Virus record (IMG/VR): IMGVR_UViG_3300006173_000005
Source: an uncultured virus (IMG/VR IMGVR_UViG_3300006173_000005)
Lineage: Duplodnaviria > Heunggongvirae > Uroviricota > Caudoviricetes
DNA: 20,000 nucleotides
Direction: 5' to 3' (one strand)
A model generated the notes under the pieces. The model was given only the letters and a program-made list of their open reading frames with translations, did no database searches and had not been told where the DNA came from. Positions 556 through 18,318 of this stretch are shown here, in pieces. Each line of letters opens with the position of its first letter. The stretch's first letter is position 1. The position numbers and the translations under genes were made by a program.

Positions 556-596
556 TTGACAACTAATCATAGTGGATATATACTAGTAATCATAGT
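556..596 (+). promoter_or_regulatory. Early promoter P1 with tandem A(C/G)TAATCATAGT boxes
   Basis: TTGACA(556-561)-17 bp-TATACT(579-584); repeats at 562-573 and 585-596. Confidence 0.85.
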
Positions 597-623
597 CAAA
601 TAAACAAGGTAACAGGGTGTTCT

Positions 624-812
624 ATGTCTAAGCTCTCTGAACTGAACCAAGCCAATAAACGTATCGCTGAAAAACTCTCAACTGGCAAGTTTAAGGATAC
701 TGGCGTTAAGTATAGTGCGGAACAAGCAGTGGCCGATCATATCAATCCTGCCCTACGCTTGACTGCACAAACATCAACCAATGGTCAATTAACATGGAAA
801 CAAGGTAGCTAA
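624..812 (+). CDS. Hypothetical protein (62 aa)
   Basis: RBS-like AGGGTG; first gene after P1. Confidence 0.7.
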   Translation: MSKLSELNQANKRIAEKLSTGKFKDTGVKYSAEQAVADHINPALRLTAQTSTNGQLTWKQGS

Positions 813-1063: not shown

Positions 1064-1072
1064 GGTCGTGAT

Positions 1073-1210: not shown

Positions 1211-1213
1211 ATC

Positions 1214-1873
1214 ATGTATAACAAACCGGATGAATTCGCTAACCTAGAGGAAACACTTATCCATTGGAAGTATCAATATGAGCGCTATCATACAACGCGA
1301 TTGCGATCATGGCGGACGATTACAGGTAAATGGATTGATCCCGCTTGCTTGTTTCAATTGGTAGAACTTGGACTAGCTACAGTCAAACTATTTAACGATA
1401 TGTGGCTAGACAATCAATTCTATTTAACCGACTTAACCCCATTGGTTGATCCCGATAACGACTATTGGTGGCAAAACGACAATAACGATTATCCACGCGA
1501 TACAGTTGAGTATATTGTCTATCTTGAGCCGCGTGTATGGGGCAAAAGACGCCAATTAGCCATTAATCTAATCTACGATCTAGGCAATGGTCATAATCCC
1601 CTAGATCGTATCAATTCAGGATTTTATGACATTGTACTGGATGCTGATATTTATCAATTCATCATGACCGAAGTCAAGCCGTTTAACGAAACATTGCAAT
1701 CTAATCTTGCCTGGTCGAGTATTCAACGTGAAATAGGCGAATTGAACCAAAAAACCGCTGACGTATATGCCTTAACTGATAATTTCAAATTAGAAGCTAA
1801 TAAGCTATCGAATTGGCGCAAGTCCCTGATAGATACAATGCTAATTTTGGTTTATGGGCGCAGCGATAACTAG
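1214..1873 (+). CDS. Hypothetical protein (219 aa)
   Basis: Long ORF with TAAGGA RBS; C-terminal coiled-coil-like segment. Confidence 0.8.
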   Translation: MYNKPDEFANLEETLIHWKYQYERYHTTRLRSWRTITGKWIDPACLFQLVELGLATVKLFNDMWLDNQFYLTDLTPLVDPDNDYWWQNDNNDYPRDTVEYIVYLEPRVWGKRRQLAINLIYDLGNGHNPLDRINSGFYDIVLDADIYQFIMTEVKPFNETLQSNLAWSSIQREIGELNQKTADVYALTDNFKLEANKLSNWRKSLIDTMLILVYGRSDN

Positions 1874-1896
1874 GTAGTACTTTAGTACCAATTCTA

Positions 1897-1951
1897 TTGA
1901 CAACCAATCAAGAGCACTTTATACTAGTAATCATAGTAAGGTTGATGATTA
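1897..1951 (+). promoter_or_regulatory. Early promoter P2 with AATCA boxes and TAATCAT-N10-ATGATTA inverted repeat
   Basis: TTGACA(1897-1902)-17 bp-TATACT(1920-1925)AGTAATCATAGT; downstream part identical to P1. Confidence 0.85.
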
Positions 1952-1970
1952 ATAAGGAATAAGGTGTTCT

Positions 1971-2132
1971 ATGTCTAAGCGCTCACTGTTCAAGATGATT
2001 TTAGCGGTTGCAGAACTAGACCGCGAATTCGCAATCTTTTACATCGAATCTGCGATCAAACAAGCTGATATTTGCCCCGATGAAAACGTTAGCTATTACC
2101 ATGAGCTATTAGCGCTCATTGAGGGTAATTAA
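1971..2132 (+). CDS. Hypothetical protein (53 aa, MSKRSLFKMILAVAELD...)
   Basis: TAAGGTG RBS; start context identical to gene 624; not in ORF track. Confidence 0.75.
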   Translation: MSKRSLFKMILAVAELDREFAIFYIESAIKQADICPDENVSYYHELLALIEGN

Positions 2133-2137
2133 CCAAT

Positions 2138-2434
2138 ATGACACAATCACAGCGTGCTTTACTTGCAGTGGCGGATATGACACAAGGTGAGTATCTAACC
2201 TATCTTGAAGATGAGTACATGATGCTGCTAAAGAGTAGCAATCCTTATCAGGCAATGGATAGCCTAATCGAATTATCCTCATTTATTGCTCGCATTGAGG
2301 ATATTACACCAAAGCAGTTTAACCACTATCGCAAGTTGTATTTACAGGAGAATCCGTATACACAAATCGAGGTTATCGCCAGTCCATTGCCAATTGCAGA
2401 AGAATCAACCGAAGTGCAGTTAAGTTTATTCTAA
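2138..2434 (+). CDS. Hypothetical protein with C-terminal QLSLF (beta-clamp-binding consensus)
   Basis: GAGGGT RBS; ends ...EVQLSLF. Confidence 0.75.
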   Translation: MTQSQRALLAVADMTQGEYLTYLEDEYMMLLKSSNPYQAMDSLIELSSFIARIEDITPKQFNHYRKLYLQENPYTQIEVIASPLPIAEESTEVQLSLF

Positions 2435-2488
2435 ATTTAACGGAATAGGCCATAAGTGAGGACTTATGGCTTAACCCGTGCAATTTAG
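2431..2488 (+). promoter_or_regulatory. Long imperfect intergenic hairpin (RNase III-type or stabiliser)
   Basis: CTAAATT..ACGG..GCCATAAGT-gagg-ACTTATGGC..CCGT..AATTTAG; no U-tract. Confidence 0.55.
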
Positions 2489-2520
2489 CACGATAAGCAA
2501 AGTATGAGGGAATAACTATC

Positions 2521-3009
2521 ATGTCTTACTCAAGTAAAGTTAACAACTGGCGTCGTGAATTTATGGACAAGTTCGGAAAAATGGCGGTGAAATATACTCC
2601 ATATACTGAACATGGCAATCTGATCGCCTACGATCAAGCGCGGGAAGTGGCTAAATTGATTATGCGTCATGCTGCTACTCACCAACGATTGCAAGAGGAA
2701 GAATGCAACGGCGTTGATTTTATGGCCCCATATTCATCAGCCTATATGCTGAATCTATACAATAATGATCGCCCCGCTCATACAGCGCTTATGGCAAAAA
2801 TTTCACAGCGCTATGATCGTTGGGAGAAACGTCTACAGCACCGCCAAGAACTAATTGAACGTCGTATCTTGCAACTTGCTGCACAATTTGGATTTAGTGC
2901 TGTGTTTGAAGGCGATCCACGCGGGGCAACCGTCAAAATCATATTTCCCGATGGGTCATACGATGACTCTGCACATGAGGGCTGGTGCGTTCCGACCAAT
3001 AATCGATAA
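2521..3009 (+). CDS. Hypothetical phage protein (162 aa, C-terminal GDPRG motif)
   Basis: GAGGG RBS; long ORF. Confidence 0.8.
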   Translation: MSYSSKVNNWRREFMDKFGKMAVKYTPYTEHGNLIAYDQAREVAKLIMRHAATHQRLQEEECNGVDFMAPYSSAYMLNLYNNDRPAHTALMAKISQRYDRWEKRLQHRQELIERRILQLAAQFGFSAVFEGDPRGATVKIIFPDGSYDDSAHEGWCVPTNNR

Positions 3010-3013
3010 TCTC

Positions 3014-3072
3014 GTTTAATCCCTCACACACTGCGCATTAAGGTAATAGTGCGCAGTAGTGAGCGAATAAGC
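3014..3072 (+). promoter_or_regulatory. Long imperfect intergenic hairpin (RNase III-type or stabiliser)
   Basis: CTCAC..ACTGCGCATTA-aggtaa-TAGTGCGCAGT..GTGAG; ends just before the AAGGA RBS. Confidence 0.55.
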
Positions 3073-3088
3073 ATAAGGATAACGCACC

Positions 3089-3445
3089 ATGACCACCAAC
3101 GATATTGAAATTTTAGCCCTAGCCTATAAAGCCTCTCAAGCATGGCGCGAATATGCTGCAATGCGTGCTATCGTGGATCGGGCAGAAGAGTATATGAATT
3201 CAATTCCATTGCTAAATAATCCTAAAGACAATTTTGATGAATACGAAGCTGCATACAATATCTTGTGCGATTTTAGGGTAACACTAGACTGCTACGCCAG
3301 TGTGCGCGATAACGCTTTTCTTAACTGGCGTCACAAACTGCCAGAGATGAATAGTTTCATCGCTTACAATCGCTGTAACACAATGGCGCGACAATATGAA
3401 ACACTGCTACAAAACAGCTATCTACAGTTTATCAAGTCGGTTTAA
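3089..3445 (+). CDS. Hypothetical protein (118 aa)
   Basis: TAAGGA RBS. Confidence 0.8.
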   Translation: MTTNDIEILALAYKASQAWREYAAMRAIVDRAEEYMNSIPLLNNPKDNFDEYEAAYNILCDFRVTLDCYASVRDNAFLNWRHKLPEMNSFIAYNRCNTMARQYETLLQNSYLQFIKSV

Positions 3446-3458
3446 GGACTATACGCTC

Positions 3459-3749
3459 ATGTATAAGCAGATTTATAAAAATCAATATGGTATGCACCGC
3501 AAAAATAAGACGCTATGTACTCCTGATGATAGCTGCCCTGTTGGTGGACGTAGTAACTTACATCACGTTATGCAAGCTGCTTATAAAACCTATGTATACG
3601 AGCGCTGTTATCTGTGTGATCCACTAACTTTTATGGATCGTTATCCGGTTGAGTACATTAAGCAGCACATGGACTATTTCAAGCAAGAAATTAGAAACAC
3701 TTATCAGCTATCCAATAGCTTCAAGTATAGCAAAGCAGCACAAGGATAA
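3459..3749 (+). CDS. Hypothetical protein (96 aa, Cys/His-containing)
   Basis: Start moved to ATG 3459 (TAAGGA RBS) from the track's 3396. Confidence 0.7.
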   Translation: MYKQIYKNQYGMHRKNKTLCTPDDSCPVGGRSNLHHVMQAAYKTYVYERCYLCDPLTFMDRYPVEYIKQHMDYFKQEIRNTYQLSNSFKYSKAAQG

Positions 3750-3757
3750 GGTGTACT

Positions 3758-4846
3758 ATGTCTCAGGTGGAATTAAAACAAGTAAACATATCAGATGTTC
3801 GAATCCGGTTTAACTACCGAGAAGAATATAATCAAGAATTCCTCTCATGGTTAACTGATCAAATTGCCACTAAGGGTTTTAATCCCGCTAAACCATTGGA
3901 CGTTTACCTTGAAGACGGTATCTACTGGATTGTAGATGGCAATACGCGCTATACAGCCGCTATGCGTGTCGCACTAGCAAAGCCCTATACACTCTATCCA
4001 GAATGTCCCATATGGGTAGCTGTACGCCGACATAAGCCTAGCGACGCTGAATTTGCACTATACAGCGCGCAGGGCAACGAAACTAACCGTGAGGTTGATA
4101 TTGTCTCTCAAGCAAAGAATTATCAACGCATCCTAGACGGCGGTCTGACCATTGCCGATATTTGTAAGCAACTAAACCACACGACTACCTATGTTGAAGA
4201 TAGACTTGCTATCCTTAAACTGGCAGATGGTATTCAGGATTATGTCAAAAAAGGCAGTTTAACTATTAAGTTTGCCGTAACCATGTCCAAGCTAAATTTC
4301 AACCGCCAATGGATTGCATTTAAGGCTTACAACTTACGCAATCTCAAACTGTGCGATTTTGAAGATATGGTCAACGATTTATACATGCAGCAAGAAAAAG
4401 AGAATCAAAAAGACTTCTTTGGTCTGATGTCAATTGAAGAAATAGAGGCAAAAGCGCAAGAACTCGCCAGCACTATACAGACCACCAAGACACCAAAGAT
4501 CAGCGACTTAGAAGCACAGCTAGAGCTAGAGCGCAAAGCACGGCTAGAGGCTGAACAAAAAGCACTAGCCGAAGCACAGGAGCGCGAACGCATCTATAAG
4601 GCTGGCGAACAGCTATACAATCGCTATACAGCCCTGCTTAAAGAATTCGAGTACCAAAAGACTACACTCAATCTACTCGAAGTCCATAACGCAGCACTTG
4701 AGATACAACTAGAGACACCAAAATCGAAATCTACCAAACGCACCAGCAAAGCTAAACAGGCTTCTCTCAATTTCGACGAGATGACAGAAGAAGAAAAGAT
4801 TAAGTTTATCGTCAACAATCCAGACCTAATCAATCCGAAGGACTAA
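3758..4846 (+). CDS. ParB/Srx-like N-terminal domain protein with HTH and coiled-coil tail
   Basis: 'FNYRE', 'PLDVY...YWIVDGNTRYTA' and 'N..R' ParB-N motifs; HTH 'TIADICKQLNHTTTYVEDRLAIL'. Confidence 0.85.
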   Translation: MSQVELKQVNISDVRIRFNYREEYNQEFLSWLTDQIATKGFNPAKPLDVYLEDGIYWIVDGNTRYTAAMRVALAKPYTLYPECPIWVAVRRHKPSDAEFALYSAQGNETNREVDIVSQAKNYQRILDGGLTIADICKQLNHTTTYVEDRLAILKLADGIQDYVKKGSLTIKFAVTMSKLNFNRQWIAFKAYNLRNLKLCDFEDMVNDLYMQQEKENQKDFFGLMSIEEIEAKAQELASTIQTTKTPKISDLEAQLELERKARLEAEQKALAEAQERERIYKAGEQLYNRYTALLKEFEYQKTTLNLLEVHNAALEIQLETPKSKSTKRTSKAKQASLNFDEMTEEEKIKFIVNNPDLINPKD

Positions 4847-4852
4847 ACTATC

Positions 4853-5356
4853 ATGACCACCACATTACTACTACCCGCTACAGCCTCACGCACCAAACAC
4901 GAACGCCGGATGATTCTTTGGGCGCTTGCCAAAGCTGGCAATAACGTCAAAGGTAATAGTCCACGCCAGTACGATACAAATTGTCATTATCCTGTTATTT
5001 ATCTGCCTGCGCCTATACAGCCTATCAGCGACGATCCATTTGAATCCGATGAAGCTGATATCGTAGCGACCTACGATGGGGCTTATTGCAGCATCCGCGT
5101 ACTTATCGGTAGACTGCTGCCACAAAGCACCCAAAACGCTCTCTTTACTCGCATCGGTACAATTGGCTCTCATATCGCCCGATGCACCGTTAATCTGTCC
5201 ACAAACGCCAATAACACCGTACTGGTTATTACACCTAACAAAACTATACAGGCCCGTGAAATCGACACCCTAAAAGCACTGGCGGTTTCCGTTGTACGTG
5301 GCTTTATCATTGAACTCGATAACACACCTGTCGCTATACAGACCAGTCTATTCTAA
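4853..5356 (+). CDS. Hypothetical protein with C-terminal QTSLF (clamp-binding-like)
   Basis: GAAGGA RBS; ends ...AIQTSLF. Confidence 0.75.
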   Translation: MTTTLLLPATASRTKHERRMILWALAKAGNNVKGNSPRQYDTNCHYPVIYLPAPIQPISDDPFESDEADIVATYDGAYCSIRVLIGRLLPQSTQNALFTRIGTIGSHIARCTVNLSTNANNTVLVITPNKTIQAREIDTLKALAVSVVRGFIIELDNTPVAIQTSLF

Positions 5357-5376
5357 GTTGTAACCATTGGCGACAG

Positions 5377-5417
5377 TTGACAAGTAATCATTAAACGGCT
5401 ATACTAGAAATCAAGAT
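5377..5417 (+). promoter_or_regulatory. Early promoter P3 with AATCA boxes
   Basis: TTGACA(5377-5382)-17 bp-TATACT(5400-5405); AGTAATCA and AGAAATCA boxes at the same positions as in P1/P2. Confidence 0.85.
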
Positions 5418-5433
5418 AAATTGGGAGGTAAAC

Positions 5434-5649
5434 ATGAATCGCACCGTCAAAGAAATTATTAGGCTGCACAAGTCCGGTTACACAAACCATCGTATCGCAG
5501 AAGCGCTGAATGTAGAGCATGGACTTGTGCGCGACACCATCAATAAGTTGTACGACCAGAAAGCCCAAGTAGGTCAACACAAAGACCTAGCCAAGAATAC
5601 GGCTAATTATCGAACCGCATCAACACGCAAAGCAAAGAACAGGGGTTAA
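5434..5649 (+). CDS. Small HTH DNA-binding protein
   Basis: GGGAGG RBS; 'IIRLHKSGYTNHRIAEALNVEHGLVRDTI' HTH pattern. Confidence 0.8.
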   Translation: MNRTVKEIIRLHKSGYTNHRIAEALNVEHGLVRDTINKLYDQKAQVGQHKDLAKNTANYRTASTRKAKNRG

Positions 5650-5651
5650 CC

Positions 5652-5903
5652 ATGAAGCGAATTGCTATTGCTACATTCATTCTATTTGTCGCATTGTTCT
5701 GTCTGACAATGCAAAGCGACACAGAACTATCTTATACATGCCAACTTAACAAACAGCAACTACAAGTCATCGCGCTACTCAAATCGCGTAGTGACACACC
5801 TGCCAATTTTATCAGCGCAGAACAAGCGCGATTCTGCGATGAAAACAAAATTCGCTCCATGATGAATATTTCACACAGTGAGCCTGTCTACAATGACCAG
5901 TAG
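5652..5903 (+). CDS. Signal-peptide/membrane-anchored hypothetical protein
   Basis: MKR plus hydrophobic stretch IAIATFILFVALFCL. Confidence 0.7.
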   Translation: MKRIAIATFILFVALFCLTMQSDTELSYTCQLNKQQLQVIALLKSRSDTPANFISAEQARFCDENKIRSMMNISHSEPVYNDQ

Positions 5904-6456
5904 TACTATACTTGCAAAACCTATACAGTCTACAAATGTAGACGGCGCTATGCAGGAACTACGAGCGCTGCTCCTACTCAGTAACGCACCAGCCGTCGAA
6001 GTAGACTACTATACAGCCCGATTAGACGCACTGGCGTTCGTTAGCCTGCCAGATCGCCAGCCCGATGAACCTGACATAGCAATCGCATGGGCTTATGGTC
6101 TGCTTTCAGTGATTGGCGTAGACCCCTATTATCCTGCCCAGAAGGGCGACCAAGCCTTCTGGTTATCCGATGGTGGTCAACTACTGGCAGGCGTGCTATA
6201 CAACGCCTATACGGGCCGATTGATAGCCATTAAAGATGCAGCGGAAATGTTGGGAATATTCCCACAGAACATCGGGCGCTGGGTAAAGCCCGGAATGCTG
6301 ACTGCTGTACCACTACCGCGCTGGACGCAGACCAAGTGGAGCGCCTATTACCGTGAACGTCGTGGGGATACTGAGCGCGTCCATTATATGCTCGTGCGCA
6401 GTGAAGTGATGAAGCTCAAACGGCATCGCACCCAAGCAAAAAAGCACAAGGAATAA
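5878..6456 (+). CDS. Protein with excisionase/MerR-like HTH (start uncertain)
   Basis: 'IAIKDAAEMLGIFPQNIGRWVKPGML...RSEV'. Confidence 0.7.
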   Translation: MSLSTMTSSTILAKPIQSTNVDGAMQELRALLLLSNAPAVEVDYYTARLDALAFVSLPDRQPDEPDIAIAWAYGLLSVIGVDPYYPAQKGDQAFWLSDGGQLLAGVLYNAYTGRLIAIKDAAEMLGIFPQNIGRWVKPGMLTAVPLPRWTQTKWSAYYRERRGDTERVHYMLVRSEVMKLKRHRTQAKKHKE

Positions 6457-6460
6457 CACT

Positions 6461-6694
6461 ATGGACACCGAATGGTATCTACGAGGTCGGGGTGTCACGA
6501 TTAAGGCAGGTGCAGTGTCCAAGTTTGGCGCAAAGTTTGAGCGCGATACGAAGGGTACACTGGCCCGTGACACCGAACCTGATGCAGAGAAATTCTCAGT
6601 ATGGCTATACGAGCCGGTGAGTAATCGGTATATCGACAATGTGAAAACTGTCGTTATACCACGTGAATTCGTTGAATTTGAGCAGGGAGGATAA
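6461..6694 (+). CDS. Hypothetical protein (77 aa)
   Basis: AAGGA RBS. Confidence 0.75.
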   Translation: MDTEWYLRGRGVTIKAGAVSKFGAKFERDTKGTLARDTEPDAEKFSVWLYEPVSNRYIDNVKTVVIPREFVEFEQGG

Positions 6695-6817
6695 ATGTTT
6701 CTATTACTAGTATTATCCATCGTGGTTCATTTTGGTCTATACATCCATCGTCGTGCGCAGTTCCAAAAGCGCGCCAACATTCCTATGCCAACGCATCAAC
6801 TACCGAAGTATCGCTAA
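6695..6817 (+). CDS. Small single-TM protein (40 aa, MFLLLVLSIVVHFGLYIHRR...)
   Basis: GGGAGG RBS; abuts the previous stop; not in ORF track. Confidence 0.65.
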   Translation: MFLLLVLSIVVHFGLYIHRRAQFQKRANIPMPTHQLPKYR

Positions 6818-6858
6818 GTCTATACTGTCCATATTGCACAAAGAAGAAATATCTAATC

Positions 6859-7095
6859 ATGACCAATCATATTACTCATCAAGCGCTCGATCAGAGTGAA
6901 ACTTACTGCTATTCATGGTGGGAAGATGGCACAGTTACCCGCAGTTTACTTGATCGTCCTACCGCACACAGAGATGAACACGGCTATTACGTTTATGGCT
7001 CACTTCGCATCAATCCACATGTACCAGTGATTCCACCGCCCACTTGGAACAATGTCGAATTCAAGTCCCGCATTGCAACTAAGTATGCCAAATAA
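6859..7095 (+). CDS. Hypothetical protein (78 aa)
   Basis: ORF with purine-rich leader. Confidence 0.7.
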   Translation: MTNHITHQALDQSETYCYSWWEDGTVTRSLLDRPTAHRDEHGYYVYGSLRINPHVPVIPPPTWNNVEFKSRIATKYAK

Positions 7096-7178
7096 TCTCC
7101 ACAATCACTAACAATCATTGGGGGCTGCGCATCCATGATTACGCAGAATTTCAGCAATAAGAAGGAAATCTAACTATC

Positions 7179-7472
7179 ATGTCTGACAATCTACAGGTTT
7201 ACGTTATCACTTGGCACGGCGTTGTTGTGGCAATATTCACCGACCAACGGCAAGCCCTGTTACATGCACGTGGACTAGCGCGTACAGAAATGGGTGATTA
7301 TCGAGAGCAAGGGTCTCCTGAACATTTCATGAACTTCTATAACGAAATAGGAGAAAACGCACCAATCACTTTATCTGGACATCTAGTTAATGCACCAGAC
7401 AGATTAGATGAAGCCTATCACGATGCTGCCATCTCGTATGAAATAGCTCAACGTATCGTATCAGGCTACTAA
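7179..7472 (+). CDS. Hypothetical protein (97 aa); predicted target of the sRNA at 12550-12637
   Basis: GAAGGA RBS; 'VYVITWHGVVVAIFTDQRQA' beta-beta-alpha pattern. Confidence 0.8.
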   Translation: MSDNLQVYVITWHGVVVAIFTDQRQALLHARGLARTEMGDYREQGSPEHFMNFYNEIGENAPITLSGHLVNAPDRLDEAYHDAAISYEIAQRIVSGY

Positions 7473-9051: not shown

Positions 9052-9311
9052 GATTTAACTACACCTTTCATCGCCATTAGTCCTTTCACCTTATTCTTTG
9101 CTGACTCTTTGGCCCCATCCATGCTCGTAAACCCTCGCTCATGGAAGTCTGCGCTCCGTAGCATGTCATCGCCAGCCCTATCCACAATAGCGTAATGCCA
9201 ACGACGATCAACGGGGCTACCATCAGTCCACACTGTGATATGCGCGGGGCCTATCCATGCCTCACAGCACTCGTCGCCGCCAATGTCCTTAAAGTACGTC
9301 CATCTAACCAT
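9048..9311 (-). CDS. Hypothetical protein (87 aa)
   Basis: Translationally coupled ORF. Confidence 0.7.
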   Translation of the reverse strand: MVRWTYFKDIGGDECCEAWIGPAHITVWTDGSPVDRRWHYAIVDRAGDDMLRSADFHERGFTSMDGAKESAKNKVKGLMAMKGVVKS

Positions 9312-9741
9312 GACTACCTACCAATCGGTGATACATCACAATACTACCAGCAACCGCAACGTTATATGACATTAGATTGACACTCTCGATTGATACCACA
9401 CACTGACAAATCGACAACGCATCAGGCGATAATCCATGATCTTCTGCGCCTAACAAATAGACGCATTGTTTGGGATGCACAAAAGCACTCAGGGTAACTC
9501 CACCAAATTCAACACCAACTAGCAGACAATCAATCGGTCTATGTGTCTGAAAATCATCCAATGTCTCGTAGTGTCGCAGTGGAATATGTCGCGTAGCCTT
9601 GCAAGTATCACTGGCTTGCGCCTTGTAGCGACGACCAATAGTGAAGATACCAGACGCACCGAGTTGATATGCACTGCGCCATAGCGTGCCAATATTCTCT
9701 TCTGTTTTCGGGTGATAAATGCCAATCTCAAAATATCCCAT
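9304..9741 (-). CDS. SpoU/TrmH-family (SPOUT) RNA 2'-O-methyltransferase
   Basis: Motif 1 'ENIGTLWRSA', motif 2 'LLGAEDHGLS', motif 3 'SYNVAVAGSIVMY'; GGAGG RBS. Confidence 0.9.
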   Translation of the reverse strand: MGYFEIGIYHPKTEENIGTLWRSAYQLGASGIFTIGRRYKAQASDTCKATRHIPLRHYETLDDFQTHRPIDCLLVGVEFGGVTLSAFVHPKQCVYLLGAEDHGLSPDALSICQCVVSIESVNLMSYNVAVAGSIVMYHRLVGSHG

Positions 9742-9982: not shown

Positions 9983-10901
9983 TGCCGCCTCCGATTAATG
10001 GCACATTGCGATTAATGAGTATACGCCCATTATCATCAATAGACGCCCCGCTCAGATAATCCTCGCCAGCATAAGCCGCAAGGTCACGAAACGTAGGCCC
10101 AATGATATAAACCACATCATGTACAATTTGGGCTTGTTCATCAGTCGTCAACTCTCGTTTCATTGACTTCATACGTTTCGCACAAGCCTTATTCGCCTCT
10201 TTAAGTGCAGTCAACGCATAATACCCTAGACGATCACGATACTTATCTTCGTCTTTGGGTAGCAATCCAAAGTATTTCACAATCTCCGCTTTGCTCATAT
10301 CAAATAGACCACGATTTTGGATAGCGCCTATCTCCCCAAAGTTAGGCGTATGTTCTTCGTGAGTAGCCAGTAGTGCGTTAGTCAATTCTTTTTGAGACTG
10401 TTTGCTTTCAACCCGTGCCGTTGCACGGTCTTCATCGAAACCTTTTAGCAGGTAAGCATTGATAGACTTAGTTGTTTCTAGCTTGGCTTGTTCGTCTGCA
10501 AGTTCCTGACGGCGCGTTTGACTAGCAAAATAGAGTTGCGCCTCAGCAATTATCGCTTTACTTGCATCGCTGTTCATGGCAATGAGATAACACGCCAACC
10601 GAGATAACTTGTAATCGTCAATCTCTCGGATAACGCTATTGCCTAATTCGACCTTTTTCGCGATAGTAAGAAAATGTCTATCCGAGCCGCTTCCTGACTT
10701 ATTACAAGAGATGATCGCTTTAGAGATAGACTTACTAAAATTTTCCCATCGGCTGTACTCATAGACAGGCATAAGCTCACGAGCATACCAATACTCGTTG
10801 CCATCATCGTCTATATGCTTAATGCTCTCAAATGGAATGCGAAGCTGAGGGATTGCAAGTTGAATATCTGAGGGGTTTGTGTTACGATTCTTCTTGGACA
10901 T
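9975..10901 (-). CDS. dinD: DinD-like (Bro-related) phage antirepressor-like protein; true start probably ATG 10901
   Basis: 'FESIKHIDDDGNEYWYARELM...Y..WENF', 'DYKLSRLACYLIAMN', 'AQLYFASQTRRQE'; AAGGA RBS before 10901. Confidence 0.8.
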   Translation of the reverse strand: MSKKNRNTNPSDIQLAIPQLRIPFESIKHIDDDGNEYWYARELMPVYEYSRWENFSKSISKAIISCNKSGSGSDRHFLTIAKKVELGNSVIREIDDYKLSRLACYLIAMNSDASKAIIAEAQLYFASQTRRQELADEQAKLETTKSINAYLLKGFDEDRATARVESKQSQKELTNALLATHEEHTPNFGEIGAIQNRGLFDMSKAEIVKYFGLLPKDEDKYRDRLGYYALTALKEANKACAKRMKSMKRELTTDEQAQIVHDVVYIIGPTFRDLAAYAGEDYLSGASIDDNGRILINRNVPLIGGGNE

Positions 10902-10956
10902 GGAACTACATCTTCCTTGTTTACGCCGATAGTTGATCCTATCGGCTTTTTCGTTT
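10860..10956 (+). ncRNA. Predicted cis-antisense RNA (~10895-10955) to the dinD RBS/start, with its promoter and terminator
   Basis: TTGAAT(10860)-17 bp-TACGAT(10883) with TGn; GCCGATAG/CTATCGGC hairpin followed by TTTTT. Confidence 0.6.
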
Positions 10957-11037
10957 ATATACGCCTGTACCGTCTGGGCGGATAGAACGGCTAAACCCAC
11001 GCGCCTAACTCGTGTCAAACTTTCGTCACAGGCAATC

Positions 11038-11068: not shown

Positions 11069-11599
11069 CGCATACAGCGTATCTGTCAACGCTTCATAAC
11101 CTATCGCAATGTCAATCGCATCAAGTCTATCCATCCCACTGTAGAACAACCTTCGTTCTTTATAATCCATTTGACGCCGAAGCATAAAGCGTTCTAATTT
11201 CACGGTAGATGTAAAAACATCGCCAATCACCCGCTCTAACTTCCACTCGTAGCCTTTTTGTCGATGCCTATCCTTATTGGTTAATGCGTACACTAGTCGC
11301 CACAGGGTAGCCTTAACGCCCTTGCTTGGCTCCCAGTGCCCAGTATACCGAGGTTGTTCCCAATCATCGAAAAAGAATTGAGTGCGAACAATCGTATCAT
11401 TCACAACGCGCAAATTAGATTGCGGATTGAATTGAGGATACTTGCCTTTTACGTAACGATTGAACTCATACAGTTCGTGAACTAGATAATCTATTCTGCC
11501 GATGACATTGGAGCCGTATTCACTTTTAATCCAATTGCAAAATTGAACGTTTACATCAGGTGGATAACTGGAGATTGTGTTATTATTGAGTGCAGACAT
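11042..11599 (-). CDS. Hypothetical protein (185 aa)
   Basis: AAGGA RBS; own -10 (TACAAT 11672-11677) and leader hairpin. Confidence 0.8.
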   Translation of the reverse strand: MSALNNNTISSYPPDVNVQFCNWIKSEYGSNVIGRIDYLVHELYEFNRYVKGKYPQFNPQSNLRVVNDTIVRTQFFFDDWEQPRYTGHWEPSKGVKATLWRLVYALTNKDRHRQKGYEWKLERVIGDVFTSTVKLERFMLRRQMDYKERRLFYSGMDRLDAIDIAIGYEALTDTLYALNYCRWGV

Positions 11600-11663
11600 G
11601 AGGCTACTATCCTTGTGTCTATGAGATTACTTGCATGTTGAGTGCGGTAATCTCGTTTCATTT
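11578..11663 (+). ncRNA. Predicted cis-antisense RNA (~11593-11663) to the 185-aa gene start
   Basis: Extended -10 TGtTATTAT (11578-11586); GAGATTAC...GTAATCTC hairpin with a weak U-tract. Confidence 0.45.
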
Positions 11664-11704
11664 GATGCTTAATTGTACACCCAAATCCACTTACGCGCTA
11701 CAAC

Positions 11705-11800
11705 AACAAAAGCCGCCTACGTGTACCTCCGCAGGCGGGTCTTATCCACAGTCACCATAACCGTCAAGTCGAGGTGGTTGCGAATGATGAGTTAATTGTA
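11705..11800 (-). ncRNA. Candidate sRNA B (~11788-11705)
   Basis: -10 TACAAT 11795-11800; 5' CAUUCGCAACCACCUC is antisense to an RBS+AUG; terminator CCGCCTGCG/CGTAGGCGG plus U-tract. Confidence 0.5.
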
Positions 11801-11805
11801 CACCT

Positions 11806-11885
11806 AAAACACAAACGGCGATACGTGAATATCGCCGCTTATGCCTGTCAAACATTAGCAAAGGAGGTTGCTGGTAATCATTATA
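11806..11885 (-). ncRNA. Candidate sRNA A (~11873-11806)
   Basis: -10 TATAAT 11880-11885; AGCAA-CCUCCU-UUGCU stem-loop; terminator GCGGCGATA/TATCGCCGT plus U-rich tail. Confidence 0.55.
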
Positions 11886-11890
11886 CCATG

Positions 11891-11926
11891 AAAACGAAAA
11901 CCACTAACTAGTTAGGTTAGTGGTTT
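11891..11926 (-). terminator. Terminator downstream of tRNA-Met
   Basis: AAACCACTAAC/GTTAGTGGTTT plus TCGTTTT. Confidence 0.75.
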
Positions 11927-11960
11927 ATCCGAGTCGTGGAGCCTCTTTAATATTGGGTTG

Positions 11961-12032
11961 TAGCGCGGAAAGGAATTGCACCTTCGACCTTCTGGTTATG
12001 AGCCAGACGAGCTACTACTGCTCTACCCCGCC
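11961..12032 (-). tRNA. tRNA-Met (CAT), initiator-like body
   Basis: GGCGGGGTAGAGCAGTAGTAGCTCGTCTGGCTCATAACCAGAAGGTCGAAGGTGCAATTCCTTTCCGCGCTA folds as a cloverleaf; CCA not encoded (CAA). Confidence 0.85.
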
Positions 12033-12171
12033 ATAAACTCGCTCACGGTTTTACAAAGACGTGAGCGATAACCTTTGCTGCCATTTACCGTCATACAGTG
12101 ACCATAGTAACGCACCTAGCAGATACGTCCTATATCCTGCTGCTTAGGTCAGGATACTTACTACATGGTTA

Positions 12172-12200
12172 ATCATAATCCCTACTGCAAAATCTGTCAA
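12172..12200 (-). promoter_or_regulatory. Sigma70 promoter for the structured leader and tRNA-Met
   Basis: TTGACA-17 bp-TATGAT. Confidence 0.8.
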
Positions 12201-12206
12201 CCGCAC

Positions 12207-12245
12207 AAAAAAACAACCCGCAATCCTCTATGGGTATCGCAGGTT
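12207..12245 (-). terminator. Terminator after the two tRNA-like genes
   Basis: AACCTGCGAT...ATTGCGGGTT plus GTTTTTTT. Confidence 0.75.
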
Positions 12246-12271
12246 ATTACGCACAGTCATCGTGTGCGATG

Positions 12272-12341
12272 TTGGGATGGCAAGAATCGAACTTGCGACG
12301 ACGGAATCGCATCCGCTGTTTTACCACTAAACTACCACCCA
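12272..12341 (-). tRNA. Aberrant tRNA-like gene; 6-nt anticodon loop (TGCGAT), identity undetermined
   Basis: Intact D arm (GTTT/AAAC) and T arm (GCAAG-TTCGATT-CTTGC); two acceptor-stem mismatches. Confidence 0.65.
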
Positions 12342-12392
12342 CGTTCACAGTATAAATCTACAGTTGCGCACCTGTTTTACTCCGTGAACTTG

Positions 12393-12467
12393 TCGGGCTG
12401 CGCAGATTTGAACTGCGCTCCTATAGGCTCTAAATCCTATCGTGCTAACCGTATACACCATTACCCG
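12393..12467 (-). tRNA. Aberrant tRNA-like gene with Pro-like acceptor; 8-nt anticodon loop (ATTTAGAG)
   Basis: CGGG.../...CCCG-A acceptor, GTGT/GCAC D stem, ATAGG/CCTAT stem, CGCAG-TTCAAAT-CTGCG T arm. Confidence 0.65.
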
Positions 12468-12549
12468 CATACATGGGACCAACGACCAAACCCTACAACC
12501 CATGTACTGCTCAGTACGATATTGGTCTCATGCGCCTATCATACATCAT

Positions 12550-12637
12550 AAAAACGGAACGCGCCACACTCTATTGGGGGAGTAGGTGGCGCGTCCGCTA
12601 TCGTAAAGCAATCAGAAGGAAACTAATCATCACGACC
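12550..12637 (-). ncRNA. Candidate trans-acting sRNA E, antisense to the RBS/start of gene 7179
   Basis: Strong promoter upstream; GC-rich terminator 12555-12597 plus TTTTT; 12607-12634 matches 7153-7181. Confidence 0.65.
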
Positions 12638-12643
12638 AATTAC

Positions 12644-12672
12644 AGTCTACTTGGTTATCGTTTGCGTGTCAA
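12644..12672 (-). promoter_or_regulatory. Sigma70 promoter of sRNA E
   Basis: TTGACA-17 bp-TAGACT. Confidence 0.8.
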
Positions 12673-12771
12673 CAAATACCCTATAACCGATACAATGGCA
12701 AGTGTTACAGCGAATGTTACACAGTGCCAGGTGAGTAGTTCCCCAGGGCTTACTGAGAAAACGGGAACCAT
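12655..12771 (-). CDS. Small TM peptide (38 aa, MVPVFSVSPGELLTW...GYLLTRKR)
   Basis: Hydrophobic helix with basic C-terminus; AGGGA upstream; not in ORF track. Confidence 0.5.
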   Translation of the reverse strand: MVPVFSVSPGELLTWHCVTFAVTLAIVSVIGYLLTRKR

Positions 12772-12851
12772 ACCATCCCTACGATGAGTGTAATCAGGCA
12801 CGCGATAATAATCGCTAATACATTGTAAATATGTTCACGCTTGATTGTCAT
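12750..12851 (-). CDS. Small TM peptide (33 aa, MTIKREHIYNVLAIIIACLITLIVGMVWFPFSQ)
   Basis: ATGA overlap; GGAGGG upstream; not in ORF track. Confidence 0.6.
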   Translation of the reverse strand: MTIKREHIYNVLAIIIACLITLIVGMVWFPFSQ

Positions 12852-12976
12852 AGATTACGGAACCCTCCACTTACTTTTGCCAACCAGTTGACGACAATAA
12901 CACTAACGATAATTAGCGTCAAAATGGCCCCAGCGAGGCCACCGCAGACTAGCAATAATAAATCGTGTACATTCAT
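12848..12976 (-). CDS. Small TM peptide (42 aa, MNVHDLLLLVCGGLAGAILTLIIVSVIVVNWLAK...)
   Basis: ATGA overlap with the coiled-coil gene; not in ORF track. Confidence 0.6.
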   Translation of the reverse strand: MNVHDLLLLVCGGLAGAILTLIIVSVIVVNWLAKVSGGFRNL

Positions 12977-13731
12977 GGCATCGTGGTCGTTTCAGGGGGT
13001 GCAGTAGGCTTCTGGGCGTCAAGCTGGTTCTGTAAATCTCTCACTTGACCTTGTAACTGCCTTACTTGCGTCTCAAGCTGAACCACTTTCTCATTAGCTG
13101 TTGCTAAATCTTTTTCGACTTGAGCTTTTTCAGTCACCGCCGTCGCGTACTGCCTTTCAAGTTCCACGATACGCGCCTTCGCCAACTCAAGTTCAATCTG
13201 AGTAAGTCTCAATTTCTCTAGCAGTTCGGACTTAGTAGTCTCAAGTTCGACCTGTGCTTCGGTGAGCGCCTTTTGCGTTCCTCTTAGTGCATCATCCATA
13301 CTGCCCACCTTTTCCACAAGCTCGGCTATTTGGGCATCCCGCGCTTGGCTATCCAACGCTCGCTGCTTGAGCAAAGAATCAACTTCACTGGTAAACTTCT
13401 TTATCTTATCTTCGTTGTCTTCAACCCGTTTGTGGTAGGCTTGGTTTTCAGTGAGAACCGCTGCTTTTTGTGCAGCGAGTTCCCGGTTTGCATCTGCGAG
13501 GTAGGTAAGTACGGATGTCATCTGACTGCTAAACTGATTGACCGTTGTCAGCGTATCTTGAGCAGTGCTTTGCGTGGCCTGCGCCGTCACTTTCGCTTCA
13601 ATCGCTGGCAGTTTTAATTGATCAATCAGACGTTCAAAATTCTTTTGATTGCGTACTAGAAATAAGGTAATGGGGCCACCAACTGCAATTACACTACCAA
13701 TGAGTGTCCCAATAATAACATTAACGTCCAT
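12973..13731 (-). CDS. Membrane-anchored long coiled-coil protein
   Basis: N-terminal TM helix followed by a long heptad-rich region. Confidence 0.85.
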   Translation of the reverse strand: MDVNVIIGTLIGSVIAVGGPITLFLVRNQKNFERLIDQLKLPAIEAKVTAQATQSTAQDTLTTVNQFSSQMTSVLTYLADANRELAAQKAAVLTENQAYHKRVEDNEDKIKKFTSEVDSLLKQRALDSQARDAQIAELVEKVGSMDDALRGTQKALTEAQVELETTKSELLEKLRLTQIELELAKARIVELERQYATAVTEKAQVEKDLATANEKVVQLETQVRQLQGQVRDLQNQLDAQKPTAPPETTTMP

Positions 13732-14077
13732 TGGATGTCACCCGCTGGATCATTTGTGGAAGCAAAGTCAAATCGGATTTGACGATAAATCCCTGTGCGC
13801 CTAAATTGATTAAAGTAGTCATCGAGTCTTCTTGTAAAAAACCCGTGACGATAATCATCGGGATACGCAGCGTCGTAAACTTAGGTTCATTCAGCGCTAA
13901 GAGGGCGTTGTACTGCGGCAAATTGTAATCCGCGAGTATAATGTCCCACCGCTCCTCTAATGCGTCTAAAAACGCTTTTTCAGTGGCAACAAGAAGCGAC
14001 GTATACTCTAACCCGCGTAAACTGTAACGGATTAGCTGCACATCGTTAGGATTGTCCTCTAGGATAAGTATACGCAA
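13721..14077 (-). CDS. Single-domain response regulator (CheY-like receiver)
   Basis: 'ILILEDN', 'DIILADYNLP' (phospho-acceptor D), 'IIVTG', 'GAQGFIVK'; TTG start with AGGTG RBS. Confidence 0.9.
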   Translation of the reverse strand: MRILILEDNPNDVQLIRYSLRGLEYTSLLVATEKAFLDALEERWDIILADYNLPQYNALLALNEPKFTTLRIPMIIVTGFLQEDSMTTLINLGAQGFIVKSDLTLLPQMIQRVTSNGR

Positions 14078-15904: not shown

Positions 15905-16579
15905 CTACTCGCTTTCCGTGTAAATAACAATCTTGATTCTTGCCGATTCTTTTAATCCCCGTAACTTATTAGGAAGTTCGTCTAACACCTGCTCAACAGT
16001 GGTAATTAACTCATTGTGGTACTGCCCAAACCTACGACTAACTATCTGTTTCTCGCTCACCTGCGCATCATGAGCAATTGCCGCCTCATTAAGTGTATCC
16101 GCTTTTAGCCTATTGGACAGTGGCCCATGCGCTATTTTAATCACCGCATCCGCCGCAGCTTGCAGCATCGGGGCATTAATTTTACCCTCCGGGGCACTTC
16201 CATAAGCTACTGCAAGGATAGCCTGACGCTGCTCCACCGGATAATGTTTGAGCACCTCGGTTTCAGCGACGGTTAATAACTTGTAGCCATATGGAGACAA
16301 TTCTTGATTAATGTCGGCGTTGTTAATCCATTCGTACAGAGTATTACGCGCCTGCTGGAACTCAGCGGCAACATAAGCGCTAAAGCTACGATACGTACCC
16401 AAATAGAGCTTCTCGCGCTTAACATGGGATAACAGTGCAATAGCTTTATCGAAGTGGTCTGCGCCCTGTTCAAAATGATATTTAGCATTCAATGTGGATT
16501 CGACATAATCCCGTTGCTGTGCCAATGTAAGCACAGCTAATTCCGCTTCAATATCAATCGTAGTCATCGCTGTGGTCAT
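15905..16579 (-). CDS. Phage protein with a DUF3102-like helical DNA-binding region
   Basis: 'LSHVKREKLYLGTYRSFSAYVAAEF...TLYEWI'. Confidence 0.6.
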   Translation of the reverse strand: MTTAMTTIDIEAELAVLTLAQQRDYVESTLNAKYHFEQGADHFDKAIALLSHVKREKLYLGTYRSFSAYVAAEFQQARNTLYEWINNADINQELSPYGYKLLTVAETEVLKHYPVEQRQAILAVAYGSAPEGKINAPMLQAAADAVIKIAHGPLSNRLKADTLNEAAIAHDAQVSEKQIVSRRFGQYHNELITTVEQVLDELPNKLRGLKESARIKIVIYTESE

Positions 16580-16580
16580 G

Positions 16581-16678
16581 TTGACAAATCCCTTTACCTA
16601 TCCTACACTGTATACGCCAATGAGTAACCTGCGTAACAAAACACGCGAGATATCAACCACCTCGCGTGTTTCTATTTT
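16581..16678 (+). ncRNA. Counter-oriented promoter with ~63-nt sRNA (~16616-16678)
   Basis: TTGACA(16581)-17 bp-TACACT(16604); AAACACGCGAG/CTCGCGTGTTT hairpin plus CTATTTT. Confidence 0.6.
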
Positions 16679-16682
16679 ACCG

Positions 16683-16916: not shown

Positions 16917-17599
16917 TGTGAACCCCCTCCTGCTGACAGTGCTGACATTAACTGTTTGCCGATATATTCAGTGTAAGCAGGCGGAATGCTTTCGCTAATC
17001 TCATGTCGAGTGATGTCATCCCAATCAATCCCCATTGCCATTTTTGCATATTCCATATAAGGCACAGTCAATCCCTGCGCCCCACCGCTCCCTGTAATGC
17101 TGATAATCCCATGCACTTTACTAGGCCCACGTCCGCTCGGTGGACACGGCTCAGGATGCTTAATGTGATGCGGTGACATGATATATAGATTGCTCTCAAA
17201 CAGACGGTGGCGATAGACTTTTAATCCAAACGTGTAACCACATAGTTCAAACGGATTGCACATGTCAGGATAAGCACCCTTGACATTCTCGATTACGTAA
17301 GGCTTGCCAAGTTTATCCAGTAGCGCCCTAAACTGCGCAATCAGCTTAGGGTACGATAACGGATCATAGGTTCCGAGTTTGCTTAAATTACTGTAGCCCT
17401 GACACTGGGGTGATACATGAATAGCATCGTATTCATAACCATGAGCCGCGAGGTAATCCAGTGCATCACCTAAAATAAATTCGTAAGGGTAGTTCGGCTG
17501 CGGTTCAATATCTACGCCAGTGCAAGTAAAACCAGCGCGACGATACCCACGACTTGCTACACCACTACAACAGCACAAATCGAGCAGCCTGTAAGTCAT
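16913..17599 (-). CDS. Orphan DNA (cytosine-5) methyltransferase, short phage type
   Basis: Motif I 'LLDLCCCSG', IV 'SPQCQGYS', VI 'VIENV', VIII 'RHRLFE', X 'ESIPPAY'. Confidence 0.85.
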   Translation of the reverse strand: MTYRLLDLCCCSGVASRGYRRAGFTCTGVDIEPQPNYPYEFILGDALDYLAAHGYEYDAIHVSPQCQGYSNLSKLGTYDPLSYPKLIAQFRALLDKLGKPYVIENVKGAYPDMCNPFELCGYTFGLKVYRHRLFESNLYIMSPHHIKHPEPCPPSGRGPSKVHGIISITGSGGAQGLTVPYMEYAKMAMGIDWDDITRHEISESIPPAYTEYIGKQLMSALSAGGGSQ

Positions 17600-18318
17600 T
17601 ATTTGTCACCATTCGATAGCAGTGGCAATTGACCATTCAGTTTAGGTTTAGGTACGCACACGAGCTTCAATACGTCTTTGTGATACGTATTCAGAGAACC
17701 ATATTGAGCATCAGCAATAGGGATTACCTCAATCTGATGTTCTATGCTATATTGCTTCGCGGCCTTACCCCACAACTGCAACAGCGCTACAGTCCACTTA
17801 ATTCCGTTAACATTGCAATACTGTTTGACGGTCATCCAATCAGCATTATCCAACCGTTCTACGATCTCGCCAACATCTTTACGCAGGGATTTTACCTCAC
17901 GTTCAATCTTGACCATAAACTGAGCCTGCGCAAGTATCATTTCAGCTTCAGTCAAAGATGACATTGAATATGTACCAGTCGATTGCAATGCAGGTAACAC
18001 CTCATGGGTCAACCAACGTTTGAACGCCTTCGACTCTGGCTTCCGACTACCAAGAACCAATGAGAATAACCCTGCTTGATTAACTACAGAATTCCGCACA
18101 GGTACACCATTCAATACATTAATGATAATGGTGTGTTCATCGTCATCTAATCGACTAACGGCTTGTGAAACATTGGCTATTTCAAGAACATTGCATACAG
18201 GGGAAGCGTCCCACCACTTTTGCCCCTTGTGATTGCGAACCGGAATATCTATTCCATTGAAAGTGAATATCTGTGGGTCGTTGTCTGAATTGTCTGGGGA
18301 TGGTAAACTTGTATTCAT
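17599..18318 (-). CDS. Bro-N domain phage antirepressor; true start probably ATG 18318
   Basis: 'FTFNG..VR...WW....VC.VL.I.N...AV.RLDDDE...VNQAGLFSLVLGSRKPESKAFKRWLTHEVLPALQSTGTY'; AAAGGA RBS. Confidence 0.9.
   Translation of the reverse strand: MNTSLPSPDNSDNDPQIFTFNGIDIPVRNHKGQKWWDASPVCNVLEIANVSQAVSRLDDDEHTIIINVLNGVPVRNSVVNQAGLFSLVLGSRKPESKAFKRWLTHEVLPALQSTGTYSMSSLTEAEMILAQAQFMVKIEREVKSLRKDVGEIVERLDNADWMTVKQYCNVNGIKWTVALLQLWGKAAKQYSIEHQIEVIPIADAQYGSLNTYHKDVLKLVCVPKPKLNGQLPLLSNGDK

What the first reader, a model, noticed from the sequence alone, without database searches (positions are those of the whole stretch)
11690..12690. Tandem cluster of orphan promoter / anti-RBS / terminator units interleaved with tRNAs
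Seen: about 1 kb without convincing ORFs, organised on the minus strand as back-to-back units. Each U-tailed hairpin (11713-11738, 11815-11838, 11898-11926, 12215-12245, 12555-12597) is followed shortly by a -10-like hexamer. Three units carry pyrimidine seeds antisense to translation-initiation regions: A (CCUCCUUU), B (CAUUCGCAACCACCUC, antisense to GAGGUGG-N6-AUG) and E (UUUCCUUCU). Read on the + strand they look like hairpin-RBS-start codon with no gene behind, the same layout as the cis-antisense modules elsewhere in this window. Inference: a bank of antisense RNAs detached from cognate genes that silence own, host-defence or rival-phage mRNAs in trans. I know of no named family for this. 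The -35 boxes of A and B are poor.
Basis: partly seen in the sequence, partly recalled or inferred. Interest (0 to 1): 0.8.

Follow-up and report, generated by a model that had tools for sequence, protein, structure and literature searches.

The report
Phage bank of start-blocking small RNAs
This bacterial virus appears to carry a row of tiny RNA genes beside its tRNAs, and at least one is shaped to cover the start signals of several of the virus's own distant early genes, which would give it an RNA-based off switch.

Summary
The observation largely holds. On the minus strand of 11690-12690, five hairpin terminators are each followed by a -10 box (shuffles 0.08 on average). Only three units (A, B, E; about 65-90 nt) look like small RNAs; two are tRNA transcripts (one tRNA-Met, two damaged tRNA-like genes) and the last promoter serves gene 11599. 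A, B and E repeat the layout of two cis-antisense modules next door (U10, U11). New here: E pairs across Shine-Dalgarno and AUG with three of the phage's own early genes (7179, 4853, 6859), and U10 with three others (624, 1971, 3758). Each beats 400 of 400 seed-fixed shuffles and 5000 of 5000 foreign start-region sets. A and B have no target in the window. Caveats: the phage's start regions form look-alike families, so E may be a relic of a lost gene; no relatives or RNA data were reachable. Best reading: P22 sar-type antisense modules turned trans-acting, locking early genes. No Rfam family matches. New variant of a known kind.

The parts
12644..12672 (-). Promoter of unit E (-35 6 of 6, 17-nt spacer, -10 4 of 6)
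   Evidence: (10 of 12)
12550..12637 (-). Unit E, candidate small RNA of about 88 nt: 5' hairpin with anti-Shine-Dalgarno loop (seed 12614-12622), then terminator 12554-12598
   Evidence: (z -6.4)
12538..12543 (-). -10 box of the transcript carrying the two damaged tRNAs (poor -35)
12468..12535 (-). Long imperfect leader hairpin H1; no clear target
   Evidence: (z -2.5)
12393..12467 (-). tRNA-like gene with 8-nt anticodon loop and pairs 5-7 of the acceptor stem disrupted; C1-G72 and A73 resemble tRNA-Pro (recalled identity rule)
   Evidence: (32.9 bits)
12342..12390 (-). Spacer hairpin H2 between the two tRNA-like genes
   Evidence: z -4.0
12272..12341 (-). tRNA-like gene with 6-nt anticodon loop and two acceptor mismatches
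   Evidence: (48.8 bits)
12212..12248 (-). Terminator D ending the tRNA-like transcript
12172..12200 (-). Promoter C (11 of 12) for leader plus tRNA-Met
12033..12166 (-). Leader of tRNA-Met; folding not significant (z -1.5), no start-region pairing above chance
11961..12032 (-). tRNA with CAU anticodon, elongator type, 7-nt loop, G5-G68 mismatch, no encoded CCA
   Evidence: (60.2 bits)
11898..11926 (-). Terminator after tRNA-Met
11880..11888 (-). Extended -10 promoter of unit A
11806..11875 (-). Unit A, candidate small RNA of about 68 nt: short 5' hairpin with anti-Shine-Dalgarno loop, terminator 11809-11844; target not in window
   Evidence: (z -4.8)
11795..11803 (-). -10 of unit B, same motif as the promoters of genes 11599 and 10901 (repeat D1)
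11706..11788 (-). Unit B, candidate small RNA of about 83 nt: anti-AUG and anti-Shine-Dalgarno 5' part, terminator 11706-11745; target not in window
   Evidence: (z -4.1)
11672..11680 (-). -10 of protein gene 11599 (not an orphan unit)
11578..11665 (+). U11: extended -10, 5' hairpin and terminator; cis-antisense to the start of gene 11599
   Evidence: (z -4.3)
10880..10956 (+). U10: extended -10, 5' hairpin and terminator; cis-antisense to the BRO-N/DinD-like gene 10901, also pairs with starts of 624, 1971 and 3758
   Evidence: (z -4.5)
7151..7190 (+). Start region of early gene 7179, best predicted target of E (-32.7 kcal/mol; holds the only other 9-nt complement of the E seed in the window)
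4825..4864 (+). Start region of early gene 4853, predicted target of E (-30.4)
6831..6870 (+). Start region of early gene 6859, predicted target of E (-26.6)
596..635 (+). Start region of early gene 624, predicted trans target of U10 (-31.1)
1943..1982 (+). Start region of early gene 1971, predicted trans target of U10 (-29.6)
3730..3769 (+). Start region of ParB-like gene 3758, predicted trans target of U10 (-27.9)

Best explanation
A, B and E are separate small antisense RNAs of a probably temperate phage. Each has a host-type promoter, a 5' hairpin that presents a pyrimidine anti-ribosome-binding seed, and an intrinsic terminator. They arose from P22 sar-type cis-antisense modules like U10 and U11 next door, whose start region was kept after the gene was lost. 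E now acts in trans: its loop pairs with the Shine-Dalgarno of early genes 7179, 4853 and 6859 and zips through the AUG, blocking ribosome loading. U10 silences its own BRO/DinD-like gene in cis and early genes 624, 1971 and 3758 in trans. Together they form a second lock on the plus-strand early region, whose three promoters share an operator-like repeat. The lock would act in lysogeny or superinfection, or at the end of the early phase. A and B probably do the same to genes outside this window. Shown by computation: layout, strand preference, folds, pairing. Inferred: transcription, repression, timing, temperate lifestyle, origin, and the targets of A and B.
For: Terminator plus -10 units 5 of 6 against a shuffle mean of 0.08. 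Minus-strand folding z -4.1 to -6.4. U10 and U11 have an extended -10 at the same place, +19 from the ATG, and are the only 2 of 41 genes whose antisense start region folds at z below -2.5. E and B have their -10 at +17 and +16 from the pseudo-start. With anti-SD and anti-start letters held fixed, the mean of the three best of 41 start regions is matched by 0 of 400 shuffles for E and, with its own gene left out (40 regions), 0 of 400 for U10. Among 790 start regions from 110 unrelated loci, 0 reach E's two best values, 6 reach its third, and 0 reach any of U10's three; 0 of 5000 random sets of 41 match either RNA. After paying for unfolding, net binding of E is -19.6, -16.6 and -15.7 kcal/mol against a median of -3.6; of U10 -17.7, -15.1 and -14.3 against -4.3. 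All six targets lie in the plus-strand early region and the two sets do not overlap. An AATCA pair 23 nt apart occurs at 3 places in the window, all three being the early promoters. Gene 4853 is real (71% identical homolog).
Against: The phage's start regions form look-alike families: perfect antisense copies of 7 of 41 start regions reach three-best means of -27 to -30 kcal/mol (one is U10 itself), about the same as E at -29, so shared ancestry alone could give the pairing. The G-U direction test was inconclusive: 5 of 6 pairs favour the RNA's direction, but pairs with no known RNA differ as much, up to 15.5 kcal/mol. A and B show nothing in the window (125 and 121 of 400 shuffles; 3846 and 2970 of 5000 foreign sets); U11 is marginal (13 of 400). 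The longest strict Watson-Crick stretch between E and the rest of the window is only 10 nt and lies in a promoter, not a start region. B has a poor -35 and a mostly paired seed. Damaged tRNAs beside the units suggest the region may be decaying. No integrase or repressor gene was identified in the window. About 44 kb of the 64,787-base contig was not seen.
Confidence: 0.55

Rival explanations
1. Relics. A, B and E are left-overs of deleted genes together with their cis-antisense modules. They may still be transcribed but regulate nothing; E pairs with early genes only because this phage reuses a few start-region sequences.
For: Start-region families exist (repeat D2). E on the plus strand reads as RBS, ACG and 51 open codons. 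Two neighbouring tRNAs are damaged. No targets for A and B in the window.
Against: Promoter, 5' hairpin and terminator of E are all intact and fold best on the antisense strand. The promoter scan lists no plus-strand site upstream of any of the three pseudo-starts within the bank. E pairs with its three targets better (-29.1) than the perfect antisense copies of those genes pair with their own three best partners (-27.1, -25.0, -23.5). Even a relic with this pairing would repress if expressed.
Confidence: 0.2
2. Outward-facing weapons. The main targets, above all of A and B, are host mRNAs such as defence genes, or start regions of competing phages; the match of E to own genes reflects targeting of related superinfecting phages that share these start regions.
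For: The Shine-Dalgarno sequences opposite A (AAGGAGG) and B (GAGGTGG) occur at no gene start in the window. SviR of the PLE satellite regulates both its own and the helper phage's mRNAs (bioRxiv 10.1101/2022.04.08.487710, passages).
Against: No host or rival sequence was available to test; blastn of the units against 50,697 phage records gave only chance-level hits, E of 1 or more. About two thirds of the phage's own contig is unseen and could hold the targets.
Confidence: 0.15
3. Plumbing only. The region is a tRNA locus with stacked promoters and terminators that insulate the tRNA transcripts and tune transcription into gene 11599; the seeds are incidental.
For: Three tRNA or tRNA-like genes take up much of the region. 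Promoter consensus hits are at chance level in the window as a whole.
Against: A, B and E contain no tRNA yet each has its own -10, 5' hairpin and terminator. The pairing statistics of E are not expected from insulation.
Confidence: 0.1

Closest known systems
P22 sar antisense RNA (review PMC12197685, text read)
   Same: Small RNA pairing with the start of an antirepressor mRNA to block translation. U10 has this arrangement on a BRO-N/DinD-like gene.
   Different: sar is one RNA with one target. Here there are five modules, three with no cognate gene, and two with predicted multiple trans targets. No Rfam match at E up to 5.
SviR of the Vibrio cholerae PLE satellite (bioRxiv 10.1101/2022.04.08.487710, passages; PMC7567579, passages)
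   Same: Trans-acting RNA of a mobile element with antisense likeness to the leaders of several of its own genes; blocks a ribosome binding site; works without Hfq or ProQ.
   Different: One RNA between inverted repeats with two seed regions, in a satellite. Here several independent promoter-hairpin-terminator units in tandem, each with its own seed, among tRNAs.
C4 antisense RNA of P1/P7 and CI RNA of P4 (PMC5320573 and PMC4825925, passages)
   Same: Phage immunity RNAs that act in trans on own mRNAs through exposed loops; the C4 b' loop partly covers ribosome binding sites.
   Different: C4 has three stem-loops and is cut from a precursor by RNase P; CI causes premature termination. A, B and E are predicted primary transcripts with one 5' hairpin and their own terminator; no Rfam match.
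Staphylococcus aureus srn_9342-9346 sRNA cluster (PMC5496865, passages)
   Same: Several small RNA genes packed in under 1 kb.
   Different: Sense/antisense pairs, one coding for a peptide and suggested to be a type I toxin-antitoxin pair; function unknown; the passages seen mention no anti-RBS seeds.

Membership tests
P22 sar-type cis-antisense RNA | Transcribed opposite to and overlapping the start region of its target gene | tested here: not met
   Met for U10 and U11; not met for A, B and E, which have no convincing gene opposite
P22 sar-type cis-antisense RNA | 5' hairpin covering Shine-Dalgarno and start codon, then an intrinsic terminator (recalled structure of sar) | tested here: met
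   Predicted folds of E, A, B, U10 and U11; A covers the Shine-Dalgarno only
P22 sar-type cis-antisense RNA | Target is an antirepressor | tested here: inconclusive
   Gene 10901 has a BRO-N domain and is DinD-like below the cut-off; E's targets have no family
C4 antisense RNA / P4 CI RNA | Match to the Rfam models; three-stem-loop fold | tested here: not met
   cmscan at E up to 5 found 3 tRNAs and one chance hit elsewhere; folds differ
C4 antisense RNA / P4 CI RNA | Processed from a precursor by RNase P | not testable with these tools
   No RNA data were listed
SviR-like trans-acting RNA of a mobile element | Pairs with start regions of several own genes | tested here: met
   E and U10, by computation only
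SviR-like trans-acting RNA of a mobile element | Second seed against another virus; sequence likeness to SviR | not tested
   No comparison with the SviR sequence was run; no co-infecting phage known
Type I toxin-antitoxin antitoxin | Small hydrophobic toxin ORF opposite or next to the RNA | tested here: not met
   Plus-strand frames behind the seeds are 3 codons (B), 6 codons (A) and a 51-codon frame from ACG with no PHROG match
Canonical tRNA | 7-nt anticodon loop and paired acceptor stem | tested here: not met
   12272-12341 and 12393-12467 have 6- and 8-nt loops and 2 mismatched acceptor pairs each; 11961-12032 has a 7-nt loop and 1 mismatch

The most novel reading that the evidence does not exclude
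The locus is an expandable bank of guide-like antisense RNAs. The phage captures start regions of genes as promoter-hairpin-terminator cassettes and stacks them beside its tRNAs, each cassette silencing a whole family of look-alike start regions in its own early region and in related superinfecting phages. This would be a protein-free, sequence-addressed immunity memory. The tRNA-like genes with scrambled anticodon loops would serve as RNase P/Z cutting signals that release further hairpin RNAs (H1, H2).
Probability: 0.15. Interest if true: 0.88.

Novelty: new variant of a known kind. Interest (0 to 1): 0.64.

Why it matters
Characterised phage antisense RNAs in the papers read are single RNAs, mostly with one cognate target. 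A tandem set of self-contained RNAs that divides the phage's own early genes among its members would be a new layer of the lysis-lysogeny or early-to-late switch. It would also show a route from cis-antisense module to trans-acting regulator inside one genome, since intact cis modules (U10, U11) and orphaned ones (E, A, B) sit side by side. It gives a function for the repeated start-region motifs of phage early genes, and it is directly testable with six named RNA-target pairs.

Tried and rejected
Rest of the genome: none held. An exact DNA pattern and proteins 11599, 12976 and ParB found nothing in viral contigs. The metagenome scan with the BRO protein gave 79 loci, none above 60% identity, sharing only the DinD-like domain. 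ParB alignments gave 4, 4 and 1 distant loci. The early-promoter pattern gave 22 loci, none with a protein or DNA match to the window. The U10/U11 start-region pattern gave 0. Sequencing runs: none was listed. Blastn of the bank against annotated phages: the 20 of 300 records shown matched over tRNA parts; non-tRNA parts gave chance hits only. Earlier findings of this scan: none. The G-U direction test was inconclusive. Leader C5 and unit U16 did not beat shuffles (152 and 89 of 300); H1, H2 and other spacers were scored without a null, best values -16 to -28 kcal/mol, and not pursued. A cis-antisense RNA for gene 3089 or 2521 was considered and left as weak, because the hairpins there fold better on the mRNA strand. 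Atlas look-ups of proteins 11599 and 12976 gave no usable lead. Host not identified. Literature: nine searches listed no paper whose title or abstract start describes a tandem bank of anti-RBS RNAs in a phage; the library lacks most subscription journals, and no supplements were read (Table S1 of PMC12197685 lists 38 phage sRNAs without known function and was not seen).

Full report
Setting. The window is part of a 64,787-base contig of a phage or prophage with few known relatives. It holds a plus-strand block of small unknown genes (624-7472) behind three near-consensus promoters at 556, 1897 and 5377, and minus-strand blocks with two BRO-N genes, a methyltransferase, a SpoU-like protein and a response regulator. 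A ParB-like gene lies in the plus-strand block. I call that block 'early' from its strong repeated promoters and small ORFs; this label is inference. No whole genome was held, and the host was not identified.

The observation. Read on the minus strand from 12672 down, the order is: promoter E, unit E with terminator, a -10, hairpin H1, a tRNA-like gene, hairpin H2, a second tRNA-like gene, terminator D, promoter C, a leader, tRNA-Met, a terminator, an extended -10, unit A with terminator, a -10, unit B with terminator, and the -10 of protein gene 11599. A relaxed scan found 6 U-tailed hairpins on the minus strand, 5 followed by a -10, against 1 and 0 on the plus strand and means of 0.88 and 0.08 in 25 shuffles (thresholds set after seeing the region). 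The strict tool finds only 2 of the 5 hairpins and promoter hits at chance level overall. E, A, B and D fold far better on the minus strand. So the layout is real, but only E, A and B are orphan RNA candidates. Rfam found only the tRNAs. On the plus strand B reads RBS-ATG-3 codons, E reads RBS-ACG-51 codons, and A has no usual start.

The template next door. Among 41 genes, only 10901 (BRO-N, DinD-like below the cut-off) and 11599 (no homolog found) have an antisense start region that folds at z below -2.5, and both have an extended -10 at +19 on the opposite strand. These RNAs, U10 and U11, resemble each other and fold as a 5' hairpin with a 7-nt loop followed by a terminator. That is the arrangement of P22 sar, which blocks antirepressor translation (PMC12197685, parts 1-2 of 6 read). 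E and B have their -10 at +17 and +16 from their pseudo-starts, and E and A show the anti-Shine-Dalgarno seed in an open loop. The bank units therefore look like the same module without its gene.

Targets. I paired each 5' part with the start regions (-28 to +12) of 41 window genes. E pairs best with 7179, 4853 and 6859 (-32.7, -30.4, -26.6 kcal/mol), covering Shine-Dalgarno and AUG, with a G-U pair at the AUG. U10, with its own gene left out, pairs best with 624, 1971 and 3758 (-31.1, -29.6, -27.9). Dinucleotide shuffles matched neither (0 of 300 each; two start positions in that call were corrected from then on). With the anti-SD and anti-start letters fixed, the three-best mean was matched by 0 of 400 shuffles for E and for U10, 13 of 400 for U11, 125 for A and 121 for B; the single best value by 1 and 4 of 400 for E and U10. 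Against 790 start regions from 110 unrelated loci, 0 of 5000 sets of 41 matched E or U10, while 3846 and 2970 matched A and B; these loci differ in base composition, which limits that control. Cofolding of full RNAs gave the same three targets each, at -14 to -20 kcal/mol net against medians near -4. The Shine-Dalgarno words opposite A and B occur at no gene start in the window.

What speaks against. The phage reuses start-region motifs: repeat D2 joins 624, 1971 and 3758, and perfect antisense copies of 7 of 41 start regions pair in trans at -27 to -30. E sits at the top of that range, not beyond it. It can be read as a central member of a start-region family, which fits a regulator and also a relic. 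The test for a bias towards G-U-compatible differences was inconclusive. Six candidate RNAs were tested with a null, U11 was added, and 11 segments were scored without a null; E and U10 are the two that stand out. No related locus could be fetched, so conservation is untested, and no integrase or repressor was identified in the window.

The tRNAs. The CAU tRNA has a normal loop and one acceptor mismatch. The other two score as tRNAs (48.8 and 32.9 bits) but have 6- and 8-nt anticodon loops and two mismatched acceptor pairs each; none of the three encodes CCA. They are unlikely to decode. They may be decaying, or may serve as cutting signals for the hairpins H1 and H2; nothing here separates these readings.

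Likely mechanism. Host RNA polymerase makes E, A, B, U10 and U11 from promoters that lack the AATCA pair found at all three early promoters and nowhere else in the window. The RNA's loop meets the Shine-Dalgarno of leaky or incoming early mRNA, the duplex extends over the AUG, and ribosomes are shut out. That would back up a protein repressor in a lysogen, give immunity against the same phage, or end the early phase. One target, 4853, ends in a motif like the sliding-clamp binding motif (recalled pattern), and its 71% homolog ends similarly, which hints at a product harmful to host replication and worth a second lock. All of this beyond layout and pairing is inference.

Comparison. It works like sar in form and like SviR in reach: SviR pairs with leaders of several own genes and blocks a ribosome binding site without Hfq (bioRxiv 10.1101/2022.04.08.487710, passages; PMC7567579, passages). 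C4 and CI RNAs also act in trans for immunity but are processed and folded differently (PMC5320573 and PMC4825925, passages). A packed sRNA cluster is known in S. aureus with another layout (PMC5496865, passages). Passages of PMC7067206, PMC8244752 and PMC9964418 added nothing closer. A, B and E fail the defining cis feature of sar and match no Rfam family, so they are not members of these families. Nine literature searches, seen as listings with abstract starts, showed no tandem bank of this kind; subscription journals and supplements were not covered.

Verdict. A real and unusual locus. Best reading, at 0.55: sar-type modules orphaned into trans-acting silencers of the phage's own early genes, shown by computation for E and U10 only. 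New variant of a known kind; interest 0.64.

Noticed in passing
window 556-593, 1897-1934, 5377-5413 (+): Three near-identical strong promoters, each with AATCA twice, 23 nt apart; this pair occurs nowhere else in the window. Looks like an operator for a phage repressor.
   Followed up: partly
window 16581-16680 (+): Unit U16: good promoter overlapping the ribosome binding site of gene 16579, then a 65-nt RNA ending in a hairpin. It shares 11 nt with the seed of B but shows no start-region pairing above chance (89 of 300).
   Followed up: partly
window 2138-2434 and 4853-5356 (+), 17599-18318 (-): C-terminal motifs like the sliding-clamp binding motif (recalled pattern) in two early proteins and an antirepressor; the homolog of 4853 ends similarly.
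   Followed up: partly
window 2431-2488 and 3015-3075 (+): Long hairpins between early genes that fold best on the mRNA strand (z -5.4 and -4.1); possible RNase III sites or stabilisers. A minus-strand promoter match at 3139-3110 could make an antisense RNA to gene 3089 (weak).
   Followed up: partly
window 12272-12341 and 12393-12467 (-): Two tRNA-like genes with 6- and 8-nt anticodon loops; all three tRNAs have a weak or broken pair 5-68 and none encodes CCA.
   Followed up: partly
window 3089-3109 (+) and 16547-16579 (-): Genes 3089 and 16579 have similar first codons (inverted repeats I5 and I24).
   Followed up: no
window 12848-14077 (-): A stand-alone response regulator receiver domain next to a coiled-coil protein with an N-terminal hydrophobic stretch and a 42-residue hydrophobic ORF; unusual for a phage. 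A 72% homolog of the receiver exists.
   Followed up: partly
window 9304-9741 (-): SpoU-family RNA methyltransferase (Pfam E 4e-20), 2 kb from the tRNA cluster; could modify phage or host tRNAs.
   Followed up: no
window 10950-11035 (-): The BRO/DinD-like gene has a leader of about 135 nt; its promoter shares a -10 motif with unit B and gene 11599 (repeat D1).
   Followed up: no
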